The notes under the pieces: model-generated
Told to the model about the DNA's origin: nothing
What the model saw: the letters and a program-made list of their open reading frames with translations, nothing else
The model's database searches: none
From: Candidatus Moraniibacteriota bacterium
GTDB lineage: Bacteria > Patescibacteriota > Minisyncoccia > Moranbacterales > UBA9337
Direction of reading: 5' to 3'
Length of the DNA stretch: 64,000 nucleotides
NCBI GenBank assembly: GCA_028695135.1
Contig: JAQVJM010000001.1
Coordinates: 13,718-77,717 of the forward strand
Made by a program: the position numbers and the translations under genes
Shown here: positions 766 to 62,034 of the stretch, in pieces
How the letters are laid out: the number at the start of each line of letters is the position of its first letter
Position numbering within the stretch: position 1 is the first letter of the stretch

Positions 766-879
766 GACTGTCTTTACGAATTACTAATTTATTACGAATA
801 TACGAATGAAATAGTGATTCGAAAGAAATTAATTAAAAATTAGTATATTAGTATAAATTAGTAATTAGTAAAGAAACAC

Positions 880-3794: not shown

Positions 3795-4985
3795 ATGGCA
3801 GAAAAATTTCAAAGAACTAAGCCACATGTAAATGTGGGAACGATCGGCCATGTCGATCATGGCAAGACAACCCTTACGGCTGCGATACTCAAAGTGTTGA
3901 GCTTTAAAGGTTGGGCGTCGGCCAAAGCGGTTTCTGATATCGATAATGCTCCTGAGGAAAAGGAGAGAGGTGTTACCATTGCAACCGCTCACTGCGAATA
4001 TGAATCGGAAAAAAGACATTATGCCCATGTGGATTGCCCGGGGCATGCCGATTATATTAAAAACATGATTACCGGAGCGGCTCAGATGGACGGAGCGATC
4101 CTAGTTGTCAGTGCGACTGACGGACCCATGCCTCAGACAAGAGAGCATATCCTTTTGGCCAAGCAAGTGGGAGTTCCAAATATAGTAGTCTTTATAAATA
4201 AGGTTGATATGGTGGATGATCCGGAACTGATTGATCTGGTTGAGGAAGAAGTGAAAGAGCTTCTTTCCAAATATGAATTCGACGGAGAAAACGCTTCTAT
4301 AATAAGAGGTTCCGCTCTTAAGGCGCTTGAATCATCCAGCGCTGACGATGAAGCAGCTAAACCGATTTTTGATTTGATAAAGGCTTTGGATGAAAAAATT
4401 CCCGAACCTAAAAGAGACACTGAGAAACCTCTACTTATGCCTATTGAAGATATCTTTTCGATTGAAGGAAGAGGAACTGTGGCTACGGGAAGAATTGAAA
4501 GGGGCGTTATAAACTTAAACGATGAAATAGAAATAGTCGGACTTAGAGACACGCAAAAAACGACTGTTACCGGAATTGAAATGTTTAACAAACAACTGGA
4601 CAAAGGAGAAGCTGGAGATAATGCCGGAGTTCTTCTTCGCGGAACTAAAAAAGAGGACATAGAGAGAGGGCAGGTCATTGCAGCTCCCGGATCGATTACC
4701 CCGCATACTGAATTTGAGGGAGAAGTTTACGTTCTCACCAAAGAAGAAGGCGGAAGGCATACTCCTTTTTTCAAGGGATATAAGCCCCAATTCTACATCC
4801 GAACCACTGATGTTACCGGAGAAGTCGAGCTTCCCGAGGGGACAGAGATGGTTATGCCGGGGGACACTGTTAATTTAAAAATAAAACTTTCTTCCCATGT
4901 CGCCATGGAGGATGGAATGAGATTTGCCATTCGCGAGGGAGGAAGAACTGTAGGCGCCGGTATCGTTACTAAAATCATCAAATAA
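3795..4985 (+). CDS. tuf: Elongation factor Tu
   Basis: [31 protein letters not shown]..., [12 protein letters not shown]; start trimmed to the ATG at 3795. Confidence 0.97.
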
Positions 4986-5081
4986 ATTTGAGCGAATATA
5001 ATCCTGCTCTTTTTGAAGGGCAGGACGATTATCCCCTCAAAATCGGGATAAAGTAATTTATTGCCAGATCTTGTTACAAAA

Positions 5082-5405
5082 ATGGTTAAAAAAGAAGAAG
5101 GACAATCAAGGATCAGAATAAAAATCAAGGCTTACGACAATAAAGTCATTGATCAATCTGCCAAGAAAATAATCGACACAGCGATGCGTTCGGGAGCCGA
5201 AGTTTCCGGTCCGATTCCGTTGCCTACGGAAATCCATAAGACAACCGTTAATAAATCAACTTTTGTGCACAAAAACGCTCGCGAGCAATTTGAAATGAGA
5301 GTGCATAAGCGGTTGATAGATATTTTAAATCCGAAACCAAAGACTATAGACGATTTGACCAGCCTTGATCTGCCGGCGGGTGTTGACATCGAAGTTAAGA
5401 TGTAG
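5082..5405 (+). CDS. rpsJ: 30S ribosomal protein S10
   Basis: [24 protein letters not shown]... typical S10; start inferred at MVKKEEG (5082). Confidence 0.9.
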
Positions 5406-5658
5406 TAGATTTAATAAGAAAATACAACTAGTTAAAGTCCCCATCTCTTGAAAAGAGATGCGAGATACTAAGCTAGCCAGGTGGTACCAAAACTATTTTA
5501 GTTTTTTACTGGCTCTTATCGACCAGTTTTTTTATTTGAATCAGTTTTAGAGATTATCCCGCAACCGATTATAAGAAATTATCTGAAAATCCAGATCCTC
5601 ATTTGTAGAATCGCCTGCGGCTTAATCAGAGTAAATATTTAGATTTTAGATGAAATAG

Positions 5659-5707
5659 GTGCGGGATGCTCATTTTGTAGCTGCTCGCTCCACTCGTAGA
5701 CAAAATG
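5659..5707 (+). promoter_or_regulatory. Conserved leader element GTGCGGGATGCTyATTTT...CTCGCTC upstream of rplC, with a hairpin (cattttgt/acaaaatg, 5671-5707) sequestering the rplC start codon
   Basis: Near-identical motif recurs upstream of rplO (15116-15172). The 8-bp stem's 3' arm contains the rplC ATG (5705-5707); no Shine-Dalgarno sequence present. Confidence 0.4.
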
Positions 5708-6277
5708 AGAAAATTTATACTGGGAAAAAAGATAGGAATGACGACTGTTTATGACAAGGACAAGGGAGCTTTGAATGTTACCTTGATTGAATGCGTTCCT
5801 AATAAGGTGTCCCTTATCAGAAGTGAGGATAAGGATGGATATTTCGCCATTCAATTGAGCATGGAAAAATCCAAGAAGGATGAATTCAAAAAAGAGTTCA
5901 GAGTTTCCAAAGAAGAAGTTGGCTCTTTTAAGGAAGGGGGAGAAATCACATTGGATAAATTCGAGTTGGAGGAGAGAGTGCGCGTTTCCGGGGTGGCAAA
6001 ATCCAAGGGATTCCAGGGCGTTATGAAAAGGCATGGATTTCACGGATCTCCATCTAGCCATGGGCACAGACATGATCATAGGGCGCCTGGCTCTATAGGT
6101 CCGGGATATCCGCAACATGTTTTGAAGGGCAGGAAAATGGCGGGAAGAATGGGAGGAAAAAGAGCGACTACTAAAAATTTAAAGATTGCCCTTATCGACA
6201 GAGAAAATAATATTGTAGGTGTTAGAGGTCCTGTTCCGGGAGTAAATGGGAGAATAGTTGAAATATTTTGTAAATAG
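5705..6277 (+). CDS. rplC: 50S ribosomal protein L3
   Basis: 190 aa; KIGMTTVYD..., FQGVMKRHGF typical L3; S10-operon order. Confidence 0.93.
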   Translation: MRKFILGKKIGMTTVYDKDKGALNVTLIECVPNKVSLIRSEDKDGYFAIQLSMEKSKKDEFKKEFRVSKEEVGSFKEGGEITLDKFELEERVRVSGVAKSKGFQGVMKRHGFHGSPSSHGHRHDHRAPGSIGPGYPQHVLKGRKMAGRMGGKRATTKNLKIALIDRENNIVGVRGPVPGVNGRIVEIFCK

Positions 6278-6279
6278 TT

Positions 6280-6906
6280 ATGAAAATAGCAGTTTATAAT
6301 TTGGAAGGAAAAAAACTGAAAGATATGGAATTATCTGAAGATGTTTTTGGTGTTGAAAAAAATGAATTTCTTTTGCACCAGGTTTATGTAGCTAAAAAAG
6401 CCAACCGGAGAAAGCCGATTGCGCATACCAAAAACAGAGGAGAGGTGGCAGGCTCAGGAATAAAGCCCTGGAGACAGAAAGGGACCGGCAGAGCGAGAGT
6501 GGGATCAGTAAGAACTCCGGTTTGGAAAGGCGGAGGAATAGTTTTCGGACCGACCAAAGAAAGAAATTTCAGCAAGAAAGTCAACAATAGGGCCAATCGA
6601 AAAGCCATAAAGATGGCTCTCAGTGAGAAAGCGAAAAAAGGCAATATGATCGTGGTCGACAGTTTCAAGCTAAAGGAGAAAAAGACCAAAGAATTTGCCA
6701 AAGGAATGGATAATCTGAAATTGAAAGGAAAAATTTTACTGAGTCTGGGAGAAAAGGAAAAGGATGCGTATCTGTATTCAAGAAACATAAAAAACATGAA
6801 ATGCATCCCCGCAAAGATTATAAACGTGATGGATTTGCTCGATTATTCAAAATTACTGATCAGCGAGGACTCGATCAAATACCTGGAAAAAAAGTATAAT
6901 AGATAA
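6280..6906 (+). CDS. rplD: 50S ribosomal protein L4
   Basis: 208 aa; ...KPWRQKGTGRARVGSVRTPVWKGGGIVFGP canonical L4 motif. Confidence 0.93.
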   Translation: MKIAVYNLEGKKLKDMELSEDVFGVEKNEFLLHQVYVAKKANRRKPIAHTKNRGEVAGSGIKPWRQKGTGRARVGSVRTPVWKGGGIVFGPTKERNFSKKVNNRANRKAIKMALSEKAKKGNMIVVDSFKLKEKKTKEFAKGMDNLKLKGKILLSLGEKEKDAYLYSRNIKNMKCIPAKIINVMDLLDYSKLLISEDSIKYLEKKYNR

Positions 6907-6911
6907 ATCGT

Positions 6912-7349
6912 ATGAGTTTATTCGGAAAAAAAGGAGACAATAAAAAGGAAGAAAAAGAAGTTTCTGATAAAAAAGCGGAAGGAAGCGAAGTTAAGATTGA
7001 GAAAGGAGAGGATAAAGAGATTTCTGCCCCAAAAAAATCCAAAAAGATTTTGAATAAAGAATTGGATGGAAGTTTGGCATATGAAACTGTGGTAAAGCCA
7101 TGGATAACGGAGAAGACCCACAGTTTAATGTCAGATGGAAAATATGTTTTCAAGATAAGGAAAGGGATAGATAAAATCCGGATTAAAGAGGCGATCGAAA
7201 GCCTGTACGGAGTGGAGATTGAAAAAATCAACATGGTTAACATCCCTCAAAAAAGAAGAAGATTCGGAAGAATTGAGGGAAAGAAGTCAGGTGTTAAAAA
7301 AGCGATCATCACATTGAGAGAAGGAGAAAGCATAGAATTTTTCGAGTAG
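6912..7349 (+). CDS. rplW: 50S ribosomal protein L23 with ~50-aa Lys/Glu-rich N-terminal extension
   Basis: C-terminal 95 aa match L23 (YETVVKPWITEKTHSL...FKI...KIRIKEAIESLYGVEIEKINMVN); N-terminal KKEEKEVSDKKAEG... low-complexity extension. Confidence 0.88.
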   Translation: MSLFGKKGDNKKEEKEVSDKKAEGSEVKIEKGEDKEISAPKKSKKILNKELDGSLAYETVVKPWITEKTHSLMSDGKYVFKIRKGIDKIRIKEAIESLYGVEIEKINMVNIPQKRRRFGRIEGKKSGVKKAIITLREGESIEFFE

Positions 7350-7451
7350 ATCATGCGGATAAGGATATGAATCGAATCCGAATGATATTCCGATGCAATA
7401 AATATGATTCGTATCACATAACTCGCATATAATTAGAATCAAAATTAGCAT

Positions 7452-7778
7452 ATGTCAAGAAGTTTAAAGAAAGGTCCTTATGTAGATGAAAGATTGATGA
7501 AAAAAATCAAGGACAAACAACCTGGTGACAAGAAGCCGATCAGGACATGGTCGAGAGCTTGCACTATTGTGCCGGAGATGGTGGGTTTTGTATTAGAAGT
7601 GCATAATGGAAGAAAATTTGTCGAAGTCAGTGTTATTGAAGAAATGGTCGGCCATAAATTGGGAGAATTTGCCCACACCAGAACATTCTTGAGACACGGA
7701 GGAAAGATCCAGAAGGAATTAGAATTAGCGGCCAAACAGAAAGAAATCGATTCCGCCAAGGCTGCCAAGACAGAATAA
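7452..7778 (+). CDS. rpsS: 30S ribosomal protein S19
   Basis: [19 protein letters not shown]...[19 protein letters not shown]...HNGRKFVEV...[16 protein letters not shown], canonical S19; note it precedes rplV and rplB (non-canonical order). Confidence 0.93.
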
Positions 7779-7806
7779 TCCCTAAGAAATTTCATATAAA
7801 TTAGCA

Positions 7807-7857
7807 GTTCGCCCGCTTGCGATCCATTCGCATAAGCGTCGCGGGCAGATGAGAATA
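7807..7857 (+). repeat. Copy 1 of a ~50-bp direct repeat / leader hairpin element (gcccgc...cgcataagcg...gcgggc) immediately upstream of rplV
   Basis: agttcgcccgcttgcgatccattcgcataagcgtcgcgggcagatgagaata vs copy 2 at 8550-8600 (~85% identity); both end 3 nt before the start codon; forms nested stem gcccgc/gcgggc. Confidence 0.7.
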
Positions 7858-7859
7858 AC

Positions 7860-8411
7860 ATGAAAGTCAAAGTTAAGGCAAAATTGAATAATTTGAGAAT
7901 ATCCCCGAGAAAGGTAAGGATTTCAGCCGATATGGTAAGAAATTGCAACGCAGGCGAGGCAATCTTTAGATTGAAAAATACGATTAAAAAATCCAACGAG
8001 CCTCTGAAAAAATTAATCGAGAGCGCAATCGCCAATGCAAAAGACAGATATGATCTGAAAACGGATGAATTGAAAATAGCAGATATCCAAGTGGGAGAAG
8101 GAATGACCCTGAAGCGCTGGACCCCTAGAGCCTATGGAAGGGCGACCGAGATTTTGAAAAGAAGTTCTCATATTTATCTGACTCTCGAGGCGGAAACGGC
8201 CGAAGAGAAAAAAAAGAAGAGCAAGAAGAAAGAGGTGAAAATTGCGGATGATAAAACAGAGGGAAAAATCGAAACGGTGGAGAAAGTGGATGTCAAAAAA
8301 GACAAGATAACCGGGGATATTAAAAAAGGACATTTTGAAGTAGAAGGCAAGAGGAAAGAAAGCAGGGAAAAAGGCTGGACAAAGAAGATATTTAAGAGAA
8401 AGTCGATGTAA
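7860..8411 (+). CDS. rplV: 50S ribosomal protein L22 with ~70-aa Lys/Glu-rich C-terminal extension
   Basis: N-terminal 110 aa match L22 (AKLNNLRISPRKVR...IESAIANA...LKIADIQVGEGMTLKRWTPRAYGRA); C-terminal EEKKKKSKKKEVK... extension. Confidence 0.9.
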   Translation: MKVKVKAKLNNLRISPRKVRISADMVRNCNAGEAIFRLKNTIKKSNEPLKKLIESAIANAKDRYDLKTDELKIADIQVGEGMTLKRWTPRAYGRATEILKRSSHIYLTLEAETAEEKKKKSKKKEVKIADDKTEGKIETVEKVDVKKDKITGDIKKGHFEVEGKRKESREKGWTKKIFKRKSM

Positions 8412-8549
8412 ATAGCTACTGCGAAGTACGAACTTATACGGATTTACGAACAAGCGCTGGAAGAATTTAAATAATTTATTTTTAATACAAGAATATAATT
8501 TGAATAAGAATTACATTTGTACATAATTTTGCGGTTCTATATGAGTCGT

Positions 8550-8600
8550 AATTCGCCCGCCTGCAATGCATTCGCATAAGCGCCGCGGGCAGGCATAGAA
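8550..8600 (+). repeat. Copy 2 of the ~50-bp direct repeat / leader hairpin element, immediately upstream of rplB
   Basis: aattcgcccgcctgcaatgcattcgcataagcgccgcgggcaggcatagaata; see copy 1. Confidence 0.7.
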
Positions 8601-8604
8601 TAGT

Positions 8605-9432
8605 ATGGCGATCAAAGTTTATAAAAAGAATAATGCGGGACGGAGAAATATGTCCGTAGTCAAGCCCGAAGGGCTTTCGAAAAATAAGCCGGAGAAATCT
8701 CTGCTAGTTGGACGCGGTAAAAAATCCGGACGTTCTGGAGGAAAGATTTCCGTTCGTCATAAAGGAGGCGGTCATAAGAAAAAATACAGGTTGGTGGATT
8801 TCAAGCAGGATAAATTTGGAATTCCCGGAAAAGTCAAATCTATCGAAAAAGATCCTTTCCGTTCAGCGTTGATAGCCCTGGTTGTTTATGCCGACGGAGA
8901 GAAAAGATATGTTCTAGCTACAGAAGGATTAAAGGAAGGAAAAGAAATAATATCAGATAAAAAGACGCCCTTTAAGAAAGGAAATAGGATGCAGATAAAA
9001 AATATTCCTGTCGGCACCATAATTTCCAATGTGGAAATGGCAATGGATGCGGGCGGCCAGCTGGCCAGGAGTGCCGGTTCGAGCGTTGTGCTTATGGGTA
9101 GTGAAGGGAGAATGGCTCAACTTAAGCTTTCTTCGGGAGAGATAAGGCTGGTAAGCAATGAATGTTATGCGACTATAGGACAAGTAAGCAATTTCGAACA
9201 CGGATCTGTCAGAGTGGGAAAAGCCGGAAGAAAAAGGTGGATGGGAATAAGGCCAGCAGTCAGAGGAACAGCTATGAATCCCGTTGACCATCCGCATGGA
9301 GGAGGAGAAGGAGTTCAAGGAATCGGACTGAAATATCCCAAAACTCCGTGGGGAAAGATCGCACTGGGAAAAAAGACCAGAAAGAAGAAAAAGCATAGTA
9401 ATAAATTTATAGTGAAGAGAAAGAAGAAATAA
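8605..9432 (+). CDS. rplB: 50S ribosomal protein L2
   Basis: 275 aa; [10 protein letters not shown]..., GRNNSG-like [24 protein letters not shown], ...HPHGGGEG; located after rplV instead of before rpsS. Confidence 0.95.
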
Positions 9433-9526
9433 CTGTTGAAATTGTGATAATTGTTGAAGATGTTACAGTAAAATAAATTAGGACAAGCAAAGCGATATAA
9501 CAATTTGGACAACTAGAACAATTAAT

Positions 9527-10168
9527 ATGGGACAAAAAGTCAATCCAAAAGGATTCAGAATCGGAATAACAACCACCTGGCGCTCCAGATGGTTCGGGGG
9601 TAAAGATTATAGAAATAATCTCAAGGAAGATGTAAGCATACGCAAGGGGGTTATGGAAAAATGGAAGCAGGCTTCTATAGCCGATGTTGAAATTGAAAGG
9701 TTCAATAACGAAATACAGATTATTATTTTGACTTCTCGTCCCGGAGTGCTTATCGGAAGAGGAGGAACAGGTGTTGAGGATATCCAGAATTTTGTGAAAA
9801 AAAATTATTTTTCCGGAAAGAAAACCGCCATCAAGATAGAGGTTAAGGAAGTTAAAGATTTCGAATCCAACGCTTCCATTGTCGCCCAGCAAGTGGCCGA
9901 ACAGCTGGAAAAAAGGATGCCTTTCAGAAGAGTTTTAAAAACCACGCTGGATCAAGTTATGGGGAATAAGACAGTCAAAGGCGCCAAAGTGGAAGTATCG
10001 GGAAGATTGGGAGGAGCGGAAATGTCTAGGACCGAATGGCTTTCCAGAGGAACTATTCCTCTTCAGACAATGAGAGCGGATATAGATTTCGCCACAGCGA
10101 CTGCTAACACCACCTACGGTTCAATCGGAGTAAAGGCATGGATTTACAAGGGAGAAATATTTGAATAA
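9527..10168 (+). CDS. rpsC: 30S ribosomal protein S3
   Basis: MGQKVNPKGFRIGITTTWRSRWF..., KH and S3-C domains, 213 aa. Confidence 0.95.
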   Translation: MGQKVNPKGFRIGITTTWRSRWFGGKDYRNNLKEDVSIRKGVMEKWKQASIADVEIERFNNEIQIIILTSRPGVLIGRGGTGVEDIQNFVKKNYFSGKKTAIKIEVKEVKDFESNASIVAQQVAEQLEKRMPFRRVLKTTLDQVMGNKTVKGAKVEVSGRLGGAEMSRTEWLSRGTIPLQTMRADIDFATATANTTYGSIGVKAWIYKGEIFE

Positions 10169-10249
10169 TCTCGTAAAGCATAACGTATAGCGCATAACGC
10201 AATAAATAAAAATGATTTGCGTTTCACGCTCCACGTTTTACGAAATAAT

Positions 10250-10663
10250 ATGCTATTGATGCCAAGAAAAGTTAAATATAGGAAAATGCACAGAGGCGGA
10301 GCCATAAGAGGAAAAGTTTCTCGGGGCGGATCCGTAAGTTTTGGCAGTTACGGACTCAAGGCTATGACGGGGGGGTTGATTTCTGCCAGGCAAATTGAGG
10401 CTGCCAGGCGGGCAATGACGAGACATATCCAGAGAGGCGGAAAAATATGGATAAGAATATTTCCCGATAAGCCAATGACCAAAAAAGGAGACGAGACTCC
10501 TATGGGTAAGGGTAAAGGAGCAGTGGATCATTATGTGGCCAAGATTAAGCCTGGGAAAGTTATGTTTGAGATGGATGGCATAGAAAGAGATGTAGCCCAA
10601 AAAGCTATGGAGCTGGCTTCGCATAAATTAAGCGTCAGAACCAAATTTATAGAAAAGAATTAA
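10250..10663 (+). CDS. rplP: 50S ribosomal protein L16
   Basis: [16 protein letters not shown]... canonical L16 N-terminus; start trimmed to the ATG at 10250. Confidence 0.93.
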
Positions 10664-10697
10664 TAAATCAGCTTATAGCTTTTAGGATAATAATTAC

Positions 10698-10886
10698 ATG
10701 AAAGCCAAGGAATTAAGAGAAAAAAATATCAATGAATTGAAGCGCGAGCTCGAAGAGAAAAAAGAAATTGTGAGACAATTGCGGTTTGATATTTCGCTTA
10801 AGCAGGTTAAAGATCACCGAGAGATCAGAAATACAAAAAGAGAGATAGCCAGACTGATGACTATCATAAAGGAAAGAAGCGAATAA
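10698..10886 (+). CDS. rpmC: 50S ribosomal protein L29
   Basis: 62 aa, MKAKELREKNINELKRELEEKKEIVRQLRFD... typical L29. Confidence 0.9.
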   Translation: MKAKELREKNINELKRELEEKKEIVRQLRFDISLKQVKDHREIRNTKREIARLMTIIKERSE

Positions 10887-10910
10887 TTTTTTAAATAATA
10901 ATTTTTAGAT

Positions 10911-11177
10911 ATGGAAAAAGAAGTGAAAAAAGGAGAAAAAATCCATAATGGAGCAGGAAAGAAAAAAATTACCGGAACAGTTATCAGCGATAAGATGGAG
11001 AAGACCATAGTAGTAGCTGTCGATATTTTTAAGACTCATCCTAAATATTTGAAGAAGTATAAATCCACCAAGAACTATAAAGTTCATGATGAGAAGAATA
11101 AATACAAAGTCGGCGATAAAGTTGAATTTACAAACTCCAAGCCGATCAGTAAGGGTAAGAGGTTTATTGTTTTATAA
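10911..11177 (+). CDS. rpsQ: 30S ribosomal protein S17
   Basis: 88 aa; ...KKITGTVISDKMEKTIVVAV...HPKY.K....K...HDE typical S17. Confidence 0.9.
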   Translation: MEKEVKKGEKIHNGAGKKKITGTVISDKMEKTIVVAVDIFKTHPKYLKKYKSTKNYKVHDEKNKYKVGDKVEFTNSKPISKGKRFIVL

Positions 11178-11335
11178 AATCCCTTCCTGTCCGCAACGTT
11201 TATGCGCGTGCGTTGCAGGAGGGCGAAGTACGAATTTTTAAGGATGCACGAATGGGTATAAGGAAATAAGGGGAATCATAATTTATACTAAATTATTCGT
11301 AAATTTGTATAAATTTGTAATCTATAGAGAATAGT

Positions 11336-11701
11336 ATGATACAAGCAGAGACACAATTGAAAGTAGCAGACAATTCTGGAGCAAAAATTATTGAATGCTT
11401 CAAGGTTTTAGGCGGATCTAGAAGGCGGTATGCTTATATAGGCGATATTATTGTCGCTTCGGTCAAAGTTTCCGAGCCGAGAGGCGCAGTCAAAAAAGGC
11501 GACAAGGTCAGAGCGGTTATTGTGAGACAGAAGAAAAATTTTAGGAGAAAGGATGGTTCATATATAAGATTCGATGAGAACGCGGCGGTGATAGTGGACG
11601 GGATGGAGCCCAAAGGCAGCCGAATTTTCGGTCCGATTGCCAGAGAAATAAAGGAGAAAGGATTTAATAAGATCGCATCCCTGGCAGTTGAGGTATTGTA
11701 G
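11336..11701 (+). CDS. rplN: 50S ribosomal protein L14
   Basis: [17 protein letters not shown]... canonical L14, 121 aa. Confidence 0.95.
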
Positions 11702-11753
11702 CTCCTGCATGCCGGTAGGCAGGTATAAATTCGTAATTTGTAGAGAATATAAT

Positions 11754-12065
11754 ATGAGGATTAAAAAGAGCGATAAAGTAAAAATAATTCACGGAAAAGA
11801 TTCAGGAAAAGAAGGCAAGGTGTTGCGTGTTTTTAAAAGTGAAGGGAAAGTGGTTGTAGAAGGAGCAAATATCGCCAAAAAACATACTCGGCCGAAAAAA
11901 GAAGGTCAAAAAGGACAAAGAGTAGAAGTCGCGATGCCGATCGATGTCTCTAATGTCATGCTGGTATGCCCTCACTGCGGTAAAGTGACTCGGATTGGCT
12001 ATAAGGCAACTGATGGAAAGAAAAGCAGGATATGCAAGAAATGCAAAAAAGAAATAATCAGCTAA
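11754..12065 (+). CDS. rplX: 50S ribosomal protein L24
   Basis: MRIKKSDKVKIIHGKDSGKEGKVLRV... (KOW motif); start trimmed to 11754. Confidence 0.92.
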   Translation: MRIKKSDKVKIIHGKDSGKEGKVLRVFKSEGKVVVEGANIAKKHTRPKKEGQKGQRVEVAMPIDVSNVMLVCPHCGKVTRIGYKATDGKKSRICKKCKKEIIS

Positions 12066-12069
12066 AATT

Positions 12070-12642
12070 ATGAAAATTACGAATATTAAAATTAAATATA
12101 AGGAAGAGGCGGTAGCTAAGCTTAAGGATAGATTCGGATACAAGAATATTTTTTCTGTTCCCAGAATAGAAAAGGTAGTGGTTAATTCAGGAATCGGACG
12201 CTTTGAAAAAGAGAATGAAAAGATAAAAGATATAGTGGAAACCTTCAGAATGATTGCCGGGCAGAATCCCATTATGGCTAAAGCTCGAAAATCCATTTCC
12301 GGATTCAAGGTAAGGCAAGGCGCAGATGTTGGAGTGAAAGTTACATTAAGAGGAAAAAGAATGTGGGATTTTATAGATAAGATGGTGAACATTACTTTTC
12401 CGAGAACCAGGGATTTCCAAGGAATCAAATTAAGCAGCATCAGTTCCGAAGGGGATCTTAACCTGGGGATAAAAGAGCAGATAGTTTTTCCCGAGATAAC
12501 TCCGGAAGAAGTGAGGCATATTTTCAGTTTGCAGATAAATGTAAAGACTACCGCCAAGACCGCAGAAGAAGGGGAGGCTTTGTTCAGAGCGCTGGGATTT
12601 CCTCTAGTAGAAAAAAATAGTTTATATAGAATAAAAGATTAA
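12070..12642 (+). CDS. rplE: 50S ribosomal protein L5
   Basis: 190 aa; ...[16 protein letters not shown]..., ...FPEI... typical L5. Confidence 0.93.
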
Positions 12643-12646
12643 TTTT

Positions 12647-12832
12647 ATGGCAAAAACATCAGTGATAGCCAAGGCTAAAAAAACTCCTAAATTTTCCACC
12701 CGAAAAGTGAGACGTTGCTGGAGATGCGGAAGGAAGCGGGGATATATGAGGAAATTCGACATTTGCAGAATTTGTTTCCGCGAATTGGCAAGCAAAGGAG
12801 AAATTCCGGGAGTCAAGAAGAGCAGCTGGTAA
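12647..12832 (+). CDS. rpsZ: 30S ribosomal protein S14 type Z (zinc-binding)
   Basis: 61 aa with [20 protein letters not shown] (two CxxC pairs) typical of S14-Z. Confidence 0.9.
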
Positions 12833-12904
12833 AAAACATGTAACCTATAACGCATAACGTGGATCGTTTCACGCTTCACGATATGCGATTTACGACAACA
12901 AAGT

Positions 12905-13312
12905 ATGTTAGATCCAATTAGCGATATGTTAACAAGAATAAGAAATGCTCAGAAATCGGGTCATGCCGAGGTGTTTTTTCCTGCTTCAAAGTTCAAAGAG
13001 TCCATAATTAAGATACTTATGAAAAAGGGATTTGTAAACGATATGGATAAAATTGAGGGGAAGAGTTTCGACACGCTTAAGCTTTTTTTGAAATATGAAA
13101 GGGAAGAAAATTCCAGCAGATTGAGACCGGCTATCAATGAGATAAAAAGGATCAGCAAAGAAGGTCAAAGGATCTATGTGGACAGTAAGGGCATCAGAAA
13201 AGTTAAAAATGGGCGCGGGGTTTTGATCGTTTCCACTTCTCAGGGAGTAATGAGCGGAGAAGAAGCTAGAAAAAAAGGAGTGGGAGGAGAAATAATCTGC
13301 GAAGTTTGGTAA
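12905..13312 (+). CDS. rpsH: 30S ribosomal protein S8
   Basis: MLDPISDMLTRIRNAQ... canonical S8 start; 135 aa. Confidence 0.93.
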   Translation: MLDPISDMLTRIRNAQKSGHAEVFFPASKFKESIIKILMKKGFVNDMDKIEGKSFDTLKLFLKYEREENSSRLRPAINEIKRISKEGQRIYVDSKGIRKVKNGRGVLIVSTSQGVMSGEEARKKGVGGEIICEVW

Positions 13313-13383
13313 ATTAATCATATAGCGCGTAGCGCACGACCTGGAACGTTCCGGGTTATGCGATATGCGATTCGAGATAAAAT

Positions 13384-13926
13384 ATGTCTAGAATAGGAAA
13401 AAAGCCAATTGAAATACCTTCCGGAGTGCAGATAGAAATAAAGGATAACAGGATAAAAGTTTCCGGTCCCAAGGGTTCTTTGGAGATGATGATTGTTTAT
13501 GAAGTAAAGGTAGAATTGAAGGATAACGCTGTTATTGTAGATCGCAAGCAAAAAAGCAAGAGAGCTTCCGCTATGTGGGGAACGACCAATAGGCTCATAT
13601 CCAATATGATAAAAGGCGTGACTGAAGGTTTTGAAAAGAGGCTTGAGCTTAACGGCGTAGGCTACAGAATGGCGGTTAAGGGAAATCAGCTCGATCTGGC
13701 TCTGGGATTTTCTCATCCTGTTTTGATCGATATTCCGGAAGGAATTACGGCCAAGATAGAGGAAGGAGCCTTATCCATATCGGGAGCGGACAAGCAAGCG
13801 GTCGGACAATTTGCCGCTGAAGTGAGGGGGCTTAAGCCGGTTGAGCCTTACAAGGGAAAAGGATTTAAATATTCCGATGAGATAGTTCGAAGGAAGGAAG
13901 GCAAGAAGGCTGTTGCCGGAGAATAA
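13384..13926 (+). CDS. rplF: 50S ribosomal protein L6
   Basis: MSRIGKKPIEIPSGVQIEIKDNRIKVSGPKGSLE... canonical L6. Confidence 0.93.
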   Translation: MSRIGKKPIEIPSGVQIEIKDNRIKVSGPKGSLEMMIVYEVKVELKDNAVIVDRKQKSKRASAMWGTTNRLISNMIKGVTEGFEKRLELNGVGYRMAVKGNQLDLALGFSHPVLIDIPEGITAKIEEGALSISGADKQAVGQFAAEVRGLKPVEPYKGKGFKYSDEIVRRKEGKKAVAGE

Positions 13927-14013
13927 AATAGTTAAAAGCAGACAGTTTGCAGTTCACATAAGATAATAAGAACCGTGAATCGCTGACTGATAATAACCAA
14001 GAACCAAAATATT

Positions 14014-14352
14014 ATGAGTAGAAATATCAATAGATTGCGCAGACAAAAAAGAATACGCGCCAAGGTTTCCGGCACTGTTCGAAAGCCTCGCCTATCCGTG
14101 TTCAAGAGCCTTACGGAAATGTATATACAGATCATCGATGATGAAAGCGGAAAAACAATCCTGAGCGCCAGCCTGAGCGAAGTCTCCAAGAAGAATAATT
14201 TGGAAGGTGCCAAAAAATTAGGAAAGCTTGTGGCCGAAAAATGCAAAAAAGCCAAGATAGAAGAGATAGTTTTTGATAGAGGGGGATATAAATATCACGG
14301 AAAAGTGAAAGCGGTGGCGGAAGAAGCGAGAAAGAGCGGGTTAAAATTTTAA
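14014..14352 (+). CDS. rplR: 50S ribosomal protein L18
   Basis: 112 aa; ...RLRRQKRIRAK..G...PRLSVFKS...YIQIIDDESGKTILSAS typical L18. Confidence 0.9.
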   Translation: MSRNINRLRRQKRIRAKVSGTVRKPRLSVFKSLTEMYIQIIDDESGKTILSASLSEVSKKNNLEGAKKLGKLVAEKCKKAKIEEIVFDRGGYKYHGKVKAVAEEARKSGLKF

Positions 14353-14470
14353 AAATCCACGAATTTACAAATCTGCTACAAATCTACAAATAAGATAATA
14401 TGTGATATAAAATGTCTAATTTGTATATATGTAAGAGATTTGTATATTTGCGGGGATAATTTCATATTTT

Positions 14471-14986
14471 ATGGATAAAGATAATAATAAATCGAGAAAA
14501 TTTAAATCTAGGAGGCCAAGAAGAGAAAAGCCTGAATTCGAGCAGAAGCTTTTGGATTTGGCCAGAGTTACTCGCGTGGTGAAAGGCGGACGCCGTTTCA
14601 GTTTTCGCGCCACGATGGTTATCGGTGATAGGAAAGGACGAGTGGGAGCAGGAGTGGGCAAAGGAACAGATGTTTCTATCGCGATCGGCAAAGCAGTCAA
14701 CGATGCTAAAAAGAACATGATAAGCATAGATGCGAGCCAAGGAACAATTTTTCATGACGTGAAAGCTAAACTGGGAAGCGCCAGAGTGATGCTTAAGCCG
14801 GCCAGGGAAGGACGCGGAATCGTGGCTGGAGGAGCGGTGAGAGCCGTTATTGATCTGGCGGGATTAAAAGATATCGTTTCCAAATCCCAAGGATCGGCCA
14901 ATAAGCTCAACGTGGCCAGGGCGACGGTCATGGCGCTCAAGGGAATCAAAGAGCCCGGGAAAGTATTAGAGAAAAAAGAGAAATAG
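14471..14986 (+). CDS. rpsE: 30S ribosomal protein S5
   Basis: ...LLDLARVTRVVKGGRRFSFRATMVIGDRKGRVGAGVGK... canonical S5. Confidence 0.93.
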   Translation: MDKDNNKSRKFKSRRPRREKPEFEQKLLDLARVTRVVKGGRRFSFRATMVIGDRKGRVGAGVGKGTDVSIAIGKAVNDAKKNMISIDASQGTIFHDVKAKLGSARVMLKPAREGRGIVAGGAVRAVIDLAGLKDIVSKSQGSANKLNVARATVMALKGIKEPGKVLEKKEK

Positions 14987-15169
14987 TCATTCGAGGCTTA
15001 CTCCATCCCGCAACTGGTTCCGAGAAGATCTGAAGGCAGGCGGAAGATATATCAAAGCGCCTTCACAAAGTTGCGGTTTGGAATTAATTTATATATAAAG
15101 ATCGGTCAGCGGATCAGTGCGGGATGCTTATTTTTATGGTCACTCGCTCTGCTCGCGGAAAAAAATGGC

Positions 15170-15697
15170 ATGCAGATACATGAATTAAAAGTTAAAGGCA
15201 AAAAGTCCCGCAAAAGGATCGGAAGAGGCGGGAAAAGAGGTACGTATTCGGGCAAAGGGATGAAGGGTCAAAAGGCCAGATCCGGAGGAAATGTCGATCC
15301 TCTCTTTGAAGGCGGACGGACAACGCTCATAGATAAGTTAAAGAAAGTTCGCGGATTTAAGGCTATTGTTGCCAAAAAGAGCGTGGTTAATCTGGAAATT
15401 ATCGACAAAAAGTTTAAAAATGGAGATACAGTAAGCTTAAATGCTCTCGTAGAAGCCGGAGCGGTTCAAAAGAGCAAAGCCGGAAGAGGAGTTAAAATTC
15501 TTGGGAATGGAAAATTGAAGAAAAAACTTTATATTGATAAAGAAATATTGTTATCGAAATCTGCCAAAGAAGCTATTGAGAAAGCCGGGGGTAGCATCGG
15601 CAAAAAATTGGCAAGCGGTAAGGAGAAAGGAAAAATGAAAGAGAAGCCGTCAGGCGAGCCGGCTAAAAAGACGGAGAAAAGAACAGCTAAAAAATAA
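15170..15697 (+). CDS. rplO: 50S ribosomal protein L15 with Lys-rich C-terminal tail
   Basis: MQIHELKVKGKKSRKRIGRGGKRGTYSGKGMKGQKARSG... canonical L15; start trimmed to the ATG at 15170. No rpmD (L30) gene between rpsE and rplO. Confidence 0.9.
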   Translation: MQIHELKVKGKKSRKRIGRGGKRGTYSGKGMKGQKARSGGNVDPLFEGGRTTLIDKLKKVRGFKAIVAKKSVVNLEIIDKKFKNGDTVSLNALVEAGAVQKSKAGRGVKILGNGKLKKKLYIDKEILLSKSAKEAIEKAGGSIGKKLASGKEKGKMKEKPSGEPAKKTEKRTAKK

Positions 15698-15703
15698 TTT
15701 CAG

Positions 15704-15734
15704 ACAGCCCTTAAATGGGCTGTTTTCTTGTTTT
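15704..15734 (+). terminator. Rho-independent terminator after rplO
   Basis: acagccc-ttaaat-gggctgt stem-loop followed by tttcttgtttt. Confidence 0.75.
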
Positions 15735-15746
15735 AAATACGAAATT

Positions 15747-15785
15747 AAACGGCCAAATCAATTAATTTAATTGATTTGGCCGTTT
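15747..15785. repeat. 39-bp perfect palindrome (19-bp arms, 1-nt centre): aaacggccaaatcaattaa-t-ttaattgatttggccgttt
   Basis: Exact reverse-complement arms read directly from the sequence; sits between the rplO terminator and the promoter of the next gene. Confidence 0.85.
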
Positions 15786-15803
15786 AATTCCGTCTTTTTC
15801 CGG

Positions 15804-15832
15804 TTGAAAAAGAGTTTTTTTAGTGATATATT
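15804..15832 (+). promoter_or_regulatory. Putative sigma70 promoter (TTGAAA-17-TATATT) for the 15857 gene
   Basis: ttgaaa aagagtttttttagtga tatatt, 25 bp upstream of the ATG at 15857. Confidence 0.5.
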
Positions 15833-15856
15833 AAGATCACAATATGATAAGTCTAG

Positions 15857-16255
15857 ATGAAAAATATGAAAATTAAAAAAGAAAATAGTTATTATATAAA
15901 TCCTGAGAATTTGCATGACCCCAATTTCGATAAAGGGAAAAATGCTTCTATCGCTTATGAAAGGATGGAAAGGCTGCAAAAAATTTTAAAAGAAATAAAT
16001 GAGCATATGGGATTAAAGAAAGCCTTTATCCTGGATCTGGAAAAAAGTTTTTTGAGTTTAAAGGATGATCCTTCACGTGCCGGCGCCATGGAGGAGATGG
16101 AAAAAGTCATAGAGGATGGTAGGAATGAGCTTGAGGATTTGGAGCAAAAGTCGCAGATCCTCGGAAAGATGATAACGAGTTATTTTTTGGCGCATTCGAC
16201 ACAGGAAAGTATCCTGGATAAATCAATTGACGAAAATACGGATACTGAAAATTAA
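15857..16255 (+). CDS. Hypothetical coiled-coil protein (132 aa)
   Basis: ORF with promoter and terminator context; charged, predicted helical; no recognisable family. Confidence 0.4.
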   Translation: MKNMKIKKENSYYINPENLHDPNFDKGKNASIAYERMERLQKILKEINEHMGLKKAFILDLEKSFLSLKDDPSRAGAMEEMEKVIEDGRNELEDLEQKSQILGKMITSYFLAHSTQESILDKSIDENTDTEN

Positions 16256-40962: not shown

Positions 40963-41065
40963 AAGCGGGCAATTCTTATCGGAAGAATTATTATTGGAAA
41001 ATAATCCTGTTTTATTTATGTTTAGTTATACAATTACGCGGTTGCGGGATTATGCAACTATTAAA

Positions 41066-41106
41066 CCTTTGCCTACAACGGTGTTGGGTGCCCGTTGCAG
41101 GCAAAG
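41066..41106 (-). repeat. Hairpin 1 of three tandem covarying hairpins (conserved core caacggtgttgggtgcccgttgc)
   Basis: cctttgcctacaacgg-tgttgggtg-cccgttgcaggcaaag; the A.C mismatch on + becomes a G.U wobble on the minus-strand transcript. Confidence 0.7.
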
Positions 41107-41121
41107 ATTTAATATTATTCC

Positions 41122-41165
41122 GTCCCTATCTGCAACGGTGTTGGGTGCCCGTTGCAGATAGGGAC
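41122..41165 (-). repeat. Hairpin 2 of three tandem covarying hairpins (perfect 17-bp stem)
   Basis: gtccctatctgcaacgg-tgttgggtgc-ccgttgcagatagggac; the outer stem sequence differs from hairpins 1 and 3 but is fully compensated. Confidence 0.75.
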
Positions 41166-41238
41166 GTCTGATTTCAATAAGTCATTTTATATAACCAGAC
41201 GTCTTTTGTCTCCGAATAAAATGCTTATTATCAGATCC

Positions 41239-41274
41239 TTGCCTACAACGGTGTTGGGTGCCCGTTGCAGGCAG
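41239..41274 (-). repeat. Hairpin 3 of three tandem covarying hairpins
   Basis: ttgcctacaacgg-tgttgggtgc-ccgttgcaggcag; begins ~16 nt after the stop codon of the upstream (minus-strand) gene. Confidence 0.7.
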
Positions 41275-41289
41275 AAATCCGATAATTTT

Positions 41290-61942: not shown

Positions 61943-62034
61943 ACGCGGAATTGCGAATGATATTTATTTTTTTATCGGATTTATCCGGGAGCGATTAAAA
62001 TAGCAAATCCGCTTCAGATTGTCAGGCTCGTTAT

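What the first reader, a model, noticed from the sequence alone, without database searches (positions are those of the whole stretch)
5406..5707. Unusually long (300 bp) structured rpsJ-rplC spacer with a conserved GTGCGGGATGCT leader shared with rplO
S10 and L3 genes are normally adjacent. Here 300 bp separate them. The spacer contains a GAA-loop hairpin (catctctt-gaa-aagagatg, ~5446-5464), an AT-only hairpin (aaaacta-ttt-tagtttt), a T-run, and then the motif ggtgcgggatgctcattttg...ctcgctc. That motif recurs almost verbatim before rplO (agtgcgggatgcttatttttatggtcactcgctc, 15116-15150). In the rplC copy an 8-bp stem pairs cattttgt with acaaaATG, occluding the start codon. There is no Shine-Dalgarno sequence. 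This may be an autoregulatory site, analogous to L4 binding the S10 leader in E. coli, or an internal promoter/leader cassette.
Basis: partly seen in the sequence, partly recalled or inferred. Interest (0 to 1): 0.5.

Follow-up and report, generated by a model that had tools for sequence, protein, structure and literature searches.

The report
Repeated start-codon-masking RNA leader cassette
The long gap between the S10 and L3 ribosomal protein genes holds two separate conserved RNA elements: a lineage-specific terminator-type leader for the L3 operon, and a copy of a previously undescribed 165-base cassette that, in one group of tiny "Moranbacteria", sits in front of dozens of unrelated housekeeping genes and folds so as to hide their start codons.

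Summary
Part A (5425-5533) is a structured RNA ending in a hairpin plus T-run. It occurs once, exactly at rpsJ-rplC, in all 10 Moranbacteria relatives examined and in no other locus searched. It is a candidate ribosomal-protein attenuator. Part B (5550-5710; second copy 14999-15170 before rplO) carries GTGCGGGATGCT. It belongs to a ~165-nt family: 62 copies in metagenome contigs, in front of about 45 different genes (ribosomal proteins, SecE/SecY, NusG/NusB, RecA, GroEL, MreB, MurA and others), always in register with the start codon. Covariation supports a 12-20 bp long-range helix (5' box CCCGCACC with 3' box GGUGCGGG). It also supports a hairpin that pairs with the start codon, and that pairing is kept when the codon changes. 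The hairpin loop (CUCGCUCC) mimics the 5' box. Modelling predicts that the start codon opens when the 5' box is absent or occupied. I read Part B as a portable translational gate, released by upstream translation or by cleavage of the long helix. Part B is not an L3/L15 autoregulatory site. Neither element matches Rfam or the searchable literature. No transcript data were available.

The parts
5083..5405 (+). rpsJ (S10), context; stop codon at 5403-5405
   Evidence: ORF and translation; identified by its sequence and by the conserved position and C-terminal sequence of the upstream gene in relatives; not Pfam-checked here
5383..5411 (+). sigma-70-like site TTGACA-17-TAGATT overlapping the rpsJ stop codon; it would start transcripts just upstream of Part A
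   Evidence: 10 of 12 matches; consensus match only, and TTGACA lies in the coding sequence
5425..5481 (+). Part A 5' domain. P1a is CUAGUU 5428-5433 paired with AGCUAG 5471-5476. The internal loop is AAA on one side and ACUA on the other. P2a is GUC 5437-5439 paired with GAU 5464-5466, capped by the GAA-loop hairpin 5442-5460
   Evidence: model R2 scores 52.8 bits; 96% of cells paired across 13 sequences, with compensatory A-U to C-G and C-G to U-A changes and many G.U pairs on this strand
5477..5513 (+). Part A putative antiterminator: CCAG 5477-5480 pairs with CUGG 5509-5512, enclosing the AT-only hairpin 5489-5505
   Evidence: direct reading and MFE folds of relatives; inference
5508..5533 (+). 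Part A terminator-like hairpin ACUGG(5508-5512)...CCAGU(5523-5527), followed by U7 at 5527-5533
   Evidence: conserved in position, with stems that differ between the 13 sequences, read by eye; not flagged by the strict scan, because the loop is 10 nt
5550..5710 (+). Part B cassette, copy 1, before rplC
   Evidence: model R1 scores 105 bits, E 6e-27
5556..5566 (+). Part B 5' box AUCCCGCAACC (5' strand of helix P1)
   Evidence: pairs with 5658-5667 in MFE and centroid folds; P1 is 94.9% paired in 62 copies, and 7 of its 12 pairs show double changes
5613..5621 (+). Part B mid box, mini-hairpin P3: GCC-UGC-GGC within AAUCGCCUGCGGCUUA
   Evidence: 98% paired and nearly invariant
5622..5657 (+). 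AT-rich linker J3/1. Its length is conserved: 38-40 nt from GGC to UGCGGG in 36 of 41 copies where the mid box could be located. It carries a weak TAAAnT/AAAnUUU signal
5658..5670 (+). It is the 3' strand of P1, or alternatively the partner of the decoy
5670..5708 (+). P4 hairpin: UCAUUUUGU 5670-5678 pairs with ACAAAAUGA 5700-5708; the inner stem is 5681-5684 with 5696-5699. It contains the rplC start codon at 5705-5707
   Evidence: 93.7% paired, and 11 of 14 pairs show double changes, including start-codon variants
5684..5691 (+). decoy CUCGCUCC in the P4 loop, complementary to the 3' box GGUGCGGG (5658-5665)
   Evidence: MFE of 5'-truncated RNA; pair counts; in-silico mutation of the decoy
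5705..6277 (+). rplC (L3), the gene served by copy 1
14999..15170 (+). Part B cassette, copy 2, between rpsE and rplO. The 5' box is 15004-15018, the 3' box 15113-15128, the decoy 15143-15150, and the vestigial ATG 15165-15167
   Evidence: model R1 scores 73.6 bits, E 2.5e-18; fold; P3 region diverged (alignment)
15170..15697 (+). rplO (L15). Its true start lies 5 nt after the cassette's ATG (junction type ATGGC+ATG)

Best explanation
The spacer is two RNA elements in series.

Part A (5425-5533) is the leader of the rplC operon. A conserved internal-loop domain (CUAGUU-AAA-GUC...GAU-ACUN-AACUAG) is followed by alternative antiterminator and terminator pairings and a U-run. It most likely acts as a factor-dependent transcription attenuator. 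The factor is presumably a ribosomal protein encoded downstream, but this is inferred, not shown.

Part B (5550-5710 and 14999-15170) is a portable cis-acting translational gate made of three matching segments. As it is transcribed, the 5' box (CCCGCACC) pairs with the 3' box (GGUGCGGG) to form the long helix P1. The next hairpin, P4, then base-pairs the A-rich initiation region and the start codon, which is the OFF state. If the 5' box is removed or occupied, the freed 3' box pairs instead with the decoy CUCGCUCC in the P4 loop. P4 can no longer form, and ACAAAAAUG is left single-stranded, which is the ON state.

I think the usual trigger inside operons is the ribosome finishing the upstream gene, whose stop codon typically lies a few to about 20 nt before P1. 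That would make the mechanism translational coupling across a 165-nt spacer. Cleavage of the roughly 20-bp P1 by a double-strand RNase would flip the same switch irreversibly.

Shown: family membership, helices P1 and P4, the register with start codons, and the diversity of genes served. Inferred: the decoy switch, which rests on thermodynamic modelling and weak covariation, and the trigger.
For: Two elements. Part A is present in every Moranbacteria locus examined, with or without Part B. R2 hits occur only at rpsJ-rplC, once per locus, in 1.27 Mb. Part A's 5' domain is 96% paired, with compensatory changes and G.U pairs specific to the sense strand. Its terminator stems differ between relatives while the U-run is kept (by-eye reading).

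Part B family. 62 sense copies were found in 357 kb. They lie upstream of 75 Pfam families among 44 proteins. In one 4.1-kb contig, secE, nusG and rplK each carry their own copy.

Part B structure. 91.9% of cells are paired, against 37-52% in slid controls, and 23 of 34 pairs show double changes. P4 keeps pairing when the codon in the start-codon position changes: AAG/CUU and AUU/AAU at the vestigial AUG of two ATGGC+ATG junctions, UUG/CAA in one copy with no clear downstream gene, and CAUAAUUGU/ACAAUUAUG in three copies.

Switch. The MFE of 5'-truncated RNAs pairs the 3' box with the decoy. That helix is 85% paired, with 9 double-change cells against 3.6 in shuffles, and has fixed G.U pairs. 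The median predicted openness of positions -6 to +3 is 0.12 in the full element, 0.51 without the 5' box, and 0.04 without the 5' box and with the decoy mutated (p = 2.8e-5 and 6.6e-8, n = 52).

Trigger. The distance from the stop codon of a co-directional upstream ORF to the P1 core has a median of 21 nt and is 20 nt or less in 26 of 53 copies.

Selection. The L3-linked copies are 70-76% identical, while the L3 coding sequence is 65-68% identical at the nucleotide level and 58-63% at the amino-acid level. The same genes (S7, L11, S5, L36, NusB, MurA, ParB, pyk, RF2, L27, L3) carry a copy in different contigs.
Against: No transcript or probing data exist. G.U versus A.C counts do not show a clear strand bias for P1 or P4, so a DNA-level role for the inverted boxes is not excluded. 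Most columns of the decoy helix are invariant. Slid controls at -3 and +3 also pair well because CUCG is repeated, so the covariation evidence for the switch is weak. Ten of 53 copies have no upstream ORF within 100 nt, and some face a divergent gene. Upstream translation therefore cannot be the only trigger. A ribosome at the stop codon would reach only the outer part of P1 in many copies. The folding predictions are noisy: window copy 2 is predicted open even in full length (0.96). The family was collected with an exact 17-mer, which inflates apparent conservation of the 3' box. For Part A, the strict terminator scan found nothing and the regulator is unknown.
Confidence: 0.5

Rival explanations
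1. Part B is a propagated promoter cassette. The AT-rich linker holds a -10 element (TAAAnT) with the mid box CTGCGG as a -35-like site. Transcripts start about 10 nt before GAATTGG, and the inverted boxes act at the DNA level or insulate the promoter from read-through.
For: The linker length is fixed at 38-40 nt while its sequence is loosely AT-rich, as in a promoter spacer. A peak of -10-like hexamers lies at -22/-21 from TGCGGGAT, with CTGCGG/TTGCGG 18 nt upstream, in about a fifth of copies. The truncated copy L124 keeps only the linker's 3' part, the 3' box and P4. Some copies face a divergent gene. Homologous upstream regions before unrelated genes are a known phenomenon (PMC3488235).
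Against: There is no sigma-70 consensus site at the conserved place in either window copy. The supposed -35 matches TTGACA at only 2 of 6 positions, although relatives do use canonical TTGACA-17-TAcAAT promoters. T at the first and last -10 positions is present in only about 55-65% of copies. Copies sit between genes that need no promoter, such as S12-S7, L14-L24 and three in a row at secE-nusG-rplK. A constitutive promoter downstream of Part A would bypass that conserved attenuator. The P1 and P4 covariation is unexplained by a promoter alone.
Confidence: 0.2
2. Part B is mainly an intercistronic processing site. The 14-20 bp P1 helix is cut by RNase III, separating cistrons and setting mRNA ends and stability. 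This is compatible with the switch model, as its trigger.
For: P1 plus its GGGC/GCUC extension forms a 17-20 bp duplex of about -24 kcal/mol in nearly all copies. Other spacers in the same cluster are single long hairpins running from stop codon to start codon. Correia elements in Neisseria are repeated elements whose inverted repeats bind RNase III and are cleaved or protected by it (PMC2649163).
Against: The sequence of P1 is far more conserved than a duplex requirement alone would need (consensus). Processing alone does not explain the decoy or the pairing of the start codon. No rnc gene or cleavage data were examined.
Confidence: 0.25
3. Part B senses one global signal, such as a metabolite, an alarmone, temperature or a protein. 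The P1-P2-P3 three-way junction would be the sensor, and the 3' box/decoy/P4 region the expression platform. That would make it a lineage-wide post-transcriptional regulon.
For: The mutually exclusive helices resemble a riboswitch platform. The AU-rich P4 resembles RNA thermometers. The genes served are core housekeeping functions. The nearly invariant mid box AAUCGCCUGCGGCUUA has no role in the simpler models.
Against: Conservation sits in the helices rather than in the junction nucleotides. The 30-nt linker is poorly conserved. P3 tolerates large hairpin insertions. No ligand can be inferred from so mixed a gene set.
Confidence: 0.15
4. Part B is a selfish miniature inverted-repeat element with no function for the host.
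For: It has terminal inverted boxes of about 15 nt, about 1 copy per 32-36 kb, and a patchy distribution. It is absent from about 150 kb of eight of the ten reference Moranbacteria loci examined. L186 carries copies at S7 and L28 but lacks the L3 copy.
Against: The conserved unit extends 45 nt beyond the 3' box. Every copy has the same orientation and the same register with a start codon. The same genes carry it in genomes whose L3 is only about 60% identical, and it evolves no faster than the L3 coding sequence. Compensatory changes keep P4 paired with altered start codons. No transposase or target duplication was seen.
Confidence: 0.07
5. The GTGCGGGATGCT region is an autoregulatory binding site for a ribosomal protein of the L3 or L15 operons.
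For: It precedes rplC and rplO in the window, and many other copies precede ribosomal protein genes.
Against: Equally good copies precede recA, groEL, mreB, murA, ddl, pyk, nrdD, parB, trpS, glyS, pilC and others.
Confidence: 0.03

Closest known systems
Translational coupling through long-range mRNA structure (E. coli IF3-L35-L20 operon; phage MS2/Qbeta coat-replicase), from my own knowledge; see also PMC2978339
   Same: The downstream initiation region is base-paired, and the pairing is thought to open when ribosomes translate the upstream cistron. Part B has its masking strands next to the upstream stop codon in about half the copies.
   Different: Those are single, gene-specific structures. 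Part B is one conserved 165-nt module reused before about 45 genes. It has a built-in decoy of the masking strand and spans distances at which termination-reinitiation is not expected (PMC6728339, PMC10666635).
Riboswitch-type expression platforms (sequestor/anti-sequestor helices)
   Same: There are three segments of which the middle one can pair with either neighbour, and the start codon is sequestered in one state.
   Different: No ligand-binding core is evident. The sequence conservation lies in the helices. No Rfam family matches.
Correia repeat enclosed elements (CREE/nemis) of Neisseria, PMC2649163
   Same: They are elements of about 100-160 bp, present in many copies near genes, with inverted-repeat ends that form an RNase III substrate when transcribed. 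They influence expression of the adjacent gene.
   Different: CREE are MITEs bounded by their repeats. They insert at variable distances and in both orientations and create promoters at their ends. Part B has a fixed orientation, a fixed register with the start codon, a conserved 45-nt tail outside the repeats, and unrelated sequence.
Putative mobile promoters ('Promoter propagation in prokaryotes', PMC3488235)
   Same: Highly similar upstream regions occur in front of non-homologous genes within and between genomes.
   Different: Part B includes the start codon and a covarying RNA structure, and evidence for a promoter inside it is weak.
S10-operon leader with L4-mediated attenuation (E. coli; Firmicutes S10 r-leader), and L4 leader of Archaeoglobi upstream of rplC (PMC3616713, PMC7247131)
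   Same: Part A is a structured leader before the L3-L4-L23 genes, with a weak terminator hairpin and U-run that could be factor-dependent.
   Different: Part A lies after rpsJ, not before it. It is restricted to Moranbacteria, has an unrelated sequence and fold, and matches no Rfam model. Its ligand is unknown.

Membership tests
Any Rfam 15 family (both elements) | Score at or near the family's gathering threshold | tested here: not met
   No match at gathering thresholds in the window. Nothing relevant at E<=10 in 4900-15400. Nothing at the best Part B copies or at Part A of L008 at E<=1; only a 22.7-bit chance match against a threshold of 80.
S10 leader / L4 attenuator | Located at the 5' end of the operon, upstream of rpsJ | tested here: not met
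   Part A lies downstream of rpsJ and upstream of rplC in all 13 sequences.
S10 leader / L4 attenuator | Terminator hairpin with U-run whose use is modulated by the regulator | tested here: inconclusive
   A hairpin plus U5-U7 is conserved, and a competing antiterminator pairing can be read. The strict scan reports no terminator. Modulation is not testable here.
S10 leader / L4 attenuator | Binding of ribosomal protein L4 | not testable with these tools
   Needs binding or termination assays.
Ribosomal-protein leader in general (Part A) | Conserved structure confined to one ribosomal-protein operon junction across a lineage | tested here: met
   R2 hits occur once per locus at rpsJ-rplC in the window and 10 Moranbacteria loci, and nowhere in 70 other loci. 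Covariation is shown.
Ribosomal-protein leader (Part B) | Association restricted to genes of the regulating protein's operon | tested here: not met
   Copies precede 75 Pfam families among 44 proteins.
sigma-70 promoter (Part B linker) | -35 and -10 hexamers at conserved position and spacing | tested here: inconclusive
   There are no consensus sites at the conserved place in the window copies. The family shows a weak TAAAnT peak at -22 with CTGCGG 18 nt upstream.
MITE / Correia-like element | Terminal inverted repeats that bound the unit | tested here: not met
   Inverted boxes exist, but the conserved unit continues 45 nt past the 3' box to the start codon.
MITE / Correia-like element | Insertion in either orientation and at variable distance from genes; target-site duplication | tested here: not met
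   All 62 copies are oriented towards a start codon in fixed register. No duplication was noted, though this was not searched systematically.
Sequestor/anti-sequestor RNA switch | Mutually exclusive helices sharing one strand, one of which hides the start codon | tested here: met
   P1 and P4 covary. The 3' box-decoy helix is 85% paired with limited covariation. Predicted start-codon openness rises from 0.12 to 0.51 and depends on the decoy. All of this is in silico.
Sequestor/anti-sequestor RNA switch | Defined sensor (ligand, protein, ribosome) that selects the state | not testable with these tools
   There is only indirect evidence: the stop codon is 20 nt or less from P1 in 26 of 53 copies.
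RNase III processing site | About two turns of nearly perfect duplex | tested here: met
   Duplexes of 17-20 bp, mean -24 kcal/mol. Cleavage itself is not testable.

The most novel reading that the evidence does not exclude
In one Moranbacteria sublineage, an estimated 30-40 core genes per genome (translation, secretion, division, cell wall, chaperone, repair) are wired to a single conserved 165-nt RNA module. The estimate extrapolates about 1 copy per 32-36 kb to a genome of about 1.2 Mb. The module folds the whole spacer away and places the upstream stop codon next to a masked start codon. It would act either as a bacterial 'shunt/coupling' device that lets ribosomes pass from one cistron to the next across 165 nt, or as the receiver of one global signal. 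Either way it would be a genome-wide post-transcriptional regulon in an organism with very few transcription factors.
Probability: 0.3. Interest if true: 0.85.

Novelty: new variant of a known kind. Interest (0 to 1): 0.7.

Why it matters
Candidate-phyla-radiation bacteria have tiny genomes and few recognisable regulators, and almost nothing is known about how they control gene expression. One RNA module reused, in exact register with the start codon, before dozens of essential genes would be a compact way to couple or co-regulate translation. It has not, to my knowledge, been described as an RNA family. It matches nothing in Rfam 15, and its sequence strings are absent from the searchable literature. 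The module gives a directly testable three-segment switch. It also suggests an explanation for why operons in these genomes tolerate long structured spacers. Part A adds a candidate ribosomal-protein leader for the L3 operon in a phylum where none is known.

Tried and rejected
- Rfam at gathering and permissive thresholds found nothing. A tRNA/tmRNA scan found nothing.
- RNAalifold on a plain MAFFT alignment missed P1, because single-base bulges put the 5' box out of register. I solved this with a hand-given structure on a 14-sequence seed and realignment to the model.
- Antisense hits of model R1 (24-42 bits) are an artefact of the near-palindromic P1, so I excluded them by using a stricter threshold.
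- I tried G.U versus A.C counts to decide whether the helices act in RNA of the sense strand. The result was inconclusive for Part B and clear for Part A.
- A pseudoknot between the P4 loop CCGC and the mid box GCGG was considered and dropped. Loop variants (CUCGUACC) occur with an unchanged mid box.
- K-turn and rRNA mimicry for Part A were considered from memory only and could not be tested. No rRNA is in the window.
- A scan of viral contigs for the 22-mer found nothing.
- A baseline of rpsJ-rplC spacer lengths in other phyla failed, because tblastn with the window's S10 found too few loci. I did not use it.
- A first upstream-gene analysis was confounded by spurious antisense ORFs and was redone.
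- An invertible-promoter reading was rejected because the interior has the same orientation in all copies.
Full report
**What is there.** The window is a ribosomal-protein cluster of a Candidatus Moranbacteria (Patescibacteria) genome. The best L3 relatives, at 53-63% identity, are all Moraniibacteriota. rpsJ ends at 5405 and rplC starts at 5705, leaving a 299-nt spacer. GTGCGGGATGCT occurs exactly twice, at 5659 and 15117. The 12-mer alone is not statistically remarkable: 5 sites at up to 2 mismatches against 2.2 expected. The two loci, however, align over about 160 nt.

**Two elements, not one.** I read the rpsJ-rplC spacer in ten Moranbacteria reference genomes. The first part of the window's spacer is present in all of them. 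This part, called Part A, runs ACAACTAGTTAAAGTCCC-hairpin-GATACTNAACTAGCCAG-hairpin-ACTGGC...CCAGTTTTTTT.

**Part A (5425-5533).** The 5' domain folds as follows.
- P1a is CUAGUU paired with AACUAG.
- An internal loop has AAA on one side and ACUN on the other.
- P2a is GUC(C)...(G)GAU, capped by a variable hairpin. In the window this is the GAA-loop hairpin.

Across 13 sequences, 96% of cells pair, against 26-48% in slid controls. Compensatory changes are A-U to C-G in P1a and C-G to U-A in P2a. Many G.U pairs exist only on the sense strand, which argues for an RNA structure.

Downstream, CCAG can pair with CUGG around the AT-only hairpin. The same CUGG can instead pair with the next CCAG, which is followed by five to seven U. 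MFE folds of different relatives choose one or the other pairing. That is the layout of an attenuator.

A covariance model of the 5' domain (R2) finds it once per locus. All hits lie at rpsJ-rplC, in the window and the ten Moranbacteria loci. There are no hits in 70 other loci totalling 1.27 Mb. No Rfam family matches. The published ribosomal-leader surveys I checked list nothing for this lineage (PMC7247131; PMC3616713). The regulator remains unknown.

**Part B is a multi-copy family.** I scanned metagenome contigs with TGCGGGATGCTYATTTT. About 55 true relatives came back, sharing the consensus TGCGGGATGCTCATTTTTGTAGCnnCTCGCtcCGCTCgcAGACAAAAATGGCA. They are followed by many different genes.

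Each copy also has, about 105 nt upstream, a box ATCCCGCACCAATTC that is complementary to GAATTGGTGCGGGAT. The duplex is 17-20 bp, with a mean of -24 kcal/mol.

I built a model from 14 copies with a hand-given structure (R1). Its results were as follows.
- Exactly two copies in the window, at 105 and 73.6 bits; the next best hit scores 14 bits.
- One copy, in L002, among 22 reference candidate-phyla loci.
- 62 sense copies in 357 kb of metagenome loci, ten of which lack the 17-mer used for fishing.

Density is about one copy per 32-36 kb. It can be much higher locally: in one 4.1-kb contig, secE, nusG and rplK each have their own copy.

**Structure of Part B.** On the 62-copy alignment, 91.9% of cells pair, against 37-52% in slid controls. 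Of the 34 pairs, 23 show changes on both sides. By helix:
- P1 is 94.9% paired.
- The start-codon hairpin P4 is 93.7% paired.
- The mini-hairpin P3 in AAUCGCCUGCGGCUUA is nearly invariant.
- The base of P2 is less well supported, at 76%.

The most telling cases concern the start-codon position.
- Three copies have CAUAAUUGU paired with ACAAUUAUG in place of CAUUUUUGU paired with ACAAAAAUG.
- In two ATGGC+ATG junctions the vestigial AUG has become AAG or AUU, with matching CUU or AAU on the other strand.
- One further copy, with no clear downstream gene, has UUG paired with CAA.

P4 is therefore selected as a helix that contains the start-codon position.

**Junction with the gene.** In 44 of 56 copies the cassette's ATG is the start codon, usually as ATGGCA giving Met-Ala. 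In 12, the gene's own ATG follows 5 nt later and out of frame (ATGGC+ATG). That group includes rplO of the window, S12, S7, L36, L28, SecY and MreB.

**Genes served.** Pfam finds 75 families among 44 downstream proteins. They include RecA, MreB, pyruvate kinase, NrdD, MurA, TrpRS, Ddl, UDP-glucose dehydrogenase, S7, S11, S12, S5, L27, L11, NusB, NusG, SecY, GroEL and a pilus platform protein. By N-terminal sequence I also recognise L3, L15, L24, L36, L28, SecE, ParB and RF2 with its frameshift site. This rules out a site specific to L3- or L15-operon proteins.

The same genes recur in different contigs: L3 three times, and S7, L11, S5, L36, NusB, MurA, ParB, pyk, RF2 and L27 twice each. The L3-linked copies are 70-76% identical. 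The L3 coding sequence is only 65-68% identical at the nucleotide level and 58-63% at the amino-acid level. The element is thus inherited in place and under purifying selection.

Its distribution among Moranbacteria is nevertheless patchy. No copy was found in the other reference loci, and L186 has copies at S7 and L28 but none at L3.

**A three-part switch.** The P4 loop CUCGCUCC (or CUCGUACC) is a near copy of the 5' box CCCGCACC and is complementary to the 3' box GGUGCGGG. When the 5' box is left out, the MFE structure pairs the 3' box with this decoy and leaves ACAAAAAUG unpaired.

Counted on the alignment, that helix is 85% paired and has fixed G.U pairs. It shows limited covariation: 9 double-change cells against 3.6 in shuffles. 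In two variant copies, both the 3' box (UUCGCGGG) and the loop (CUCGCGAC) change together. Most columns are invariant, so this evidence is suggestive only.

Partition-function modelling of 52 copies gives the following median openness for positions -6 to +3.

| RNA modelled | Median openness |
|---|---|
| Full element | 0.12 |
| Without the 5' box | 0.51 |
| Without the 5' box, decoy replaced | 0.04 |

The Wilcoxon p-values are 2.8e-5 for full against truncated and 6.6e-8 for truncated against decoy-replaced.

**What flips it.** In 53 copies with a co-directional upstream ORF, the distance from that ORF's stop codon to the P1 core has a median of 21 nt. It is 20 nt or less in 26 copies. In the window it is 18 nt for rplO.

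Folded, the element brings the upstream stop codon and the downstream start codon together at the base of two adjacent helices. I consider ribosome-dependent opening, meaning translational coupling across a long spacer, the most likely trigger inside operons. Cleavage of the roughly 20-bp P1 by RNase III is an alternative or additional trigger. Neither is shown.

Ten copies have no nearby upstream ORF, so another trigger must exist for those. Candidates are an internal promoter that omits the 5' box, or a trans-acting factor.

The internal-promoter idea has only weak support. The linker has a fixed length and a modest TAAAnT peak. There is no consensus site in either window copy, while relatives clearly use canonical TTGACA-17-TAcAAT promoters.

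**Context.** Other spacers of the same cluster also fold into one long hairpin running from just after the stop codon to just before the next start codon, with z-scores of -3.7 to -6.1. Juxtaposing stop and start codons by RNA structure therefore looks like a general habit of this genome, and Part B is its conserved, reusable form.

**Comparison and novelty.** Part B works like a sequestor/anti-sequestor platform, and like long-range translational coupling. It resembles Correia elements and mobile promoters in being a repeated upstream module (PMC2649163, PMC3488235). It is not a member of any of those families. Its orientation and register with the start codon are fixed. The conserved unit extends beyond the inverted boxes. 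There is no Rfam match, no literature match to its sequence and no viral copy.

I rate it a new variant of a known kind. Part A is a new candidate member of the ribosomal-leader kind.

**Limits.** All structural and mechanistic statements rest on sequence comparison and folding models. The family was collected with an exact 17-mer, which biases conservation estimates. No expression data were available.

Noticed in passing
window 766-879, 10169-10252, 12833-12904, 13313-13383, 13927-14013, 14353-14470: Most intergenic spacers of the ribosomal-protein cluster fold into one long hairpin spanning nearly the whole spacer, from 5-8 nt after the stop codon to 8-20 nt before the next ATG. Examples: S12-S7 at -29.2 kcal/mol (z -6.1), L18-S5 at z -5.8, S8-L6 at z -4.75, S3-L16 at z -3.7. 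The arms are built of short degenerate repeats (TACGAAT, TACAAAT, ATAACGC).
   Followed up: partly
window 7808-7848 and 8552-8592: A 41-nt GC-rich hairpin repeat (90% identical; GCCCGC-TGCGA...TCGCA-GCGGGC) lies 12 nt before the ATG of rplV and of rplB. It may be a second, smaller leader family.
   Followed up: no
window 6912-9432 and 14471-16255: Unusual gene order. The order is L23-S19-L22-L2-S3, with L2 moved behind L22. There is no L30 between S5 and L15. No secY, adk, map or infA follows L15; unrelated small ORFs follow instead.
   Followed up: no
window 8421-8450, 11223-11252, 61928-61957; 1349-1386 and 14354-14391: Further short repeats are shared between different spacers (GCGAAGTACGAA..., AATCCGCTAAAATACAAATC...).
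   Followed up: no
L004 ~2080-2130, L007 ~2830-2880, L010 ~9890-9940: A canonical TTGACA-17-TAcAAT promoter sits inside the variable hairpin of Part A in three relatives. This shows that Moranbacteria use sigma-70 consensus promoters. It also raises the question of how Part A works in those genomes.
   Followed up: no
L098, L113, L117, L161, L168, L127, L197 (7489-7696), L085: GC-rich mini-hairpins (for example GCCTCGCC...GGCGAGGC, GCCTACCGGCAGGCAGG) are inserted into the P3 loop or the P4 stem of some Part B copies. A similar hairpin lies in the L005 spacer. This may be a separate small mobile palindrome.
   Followed up: no
L166 and L179 downstream of Part B: The downstream ORFs stop after 22-23 codons at ...LSDYL* and ...LRDWL*. 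This is the pattern of the programmed +1 frameshift of release factor 2, which therefore also lies behind the cassette.
   Followed up: no
window 32102-33092; 27504-28732; 41059-41289: Three further repeat regions. The first is a tandem array with a 75-nt period (11 copies, 60-70% identical). The second has repeats of 189/195-nt period, probably a repeat protein. The third has three copies of a 61-nt hairpin repeat (CCTTTGCCTACAACGGTGTTGGGTGCCCGTTGCAGGCAAAG).
   Followed up: no
L124 2430-2599; L147, L151: Truncated or degenerate Part B copies. L124 keeps only the last part of the linker, the 3' box and P4. L147 and L151 keep the 3' box but have unrelated P4 hairpins without a decoy.
   Followed up: partly
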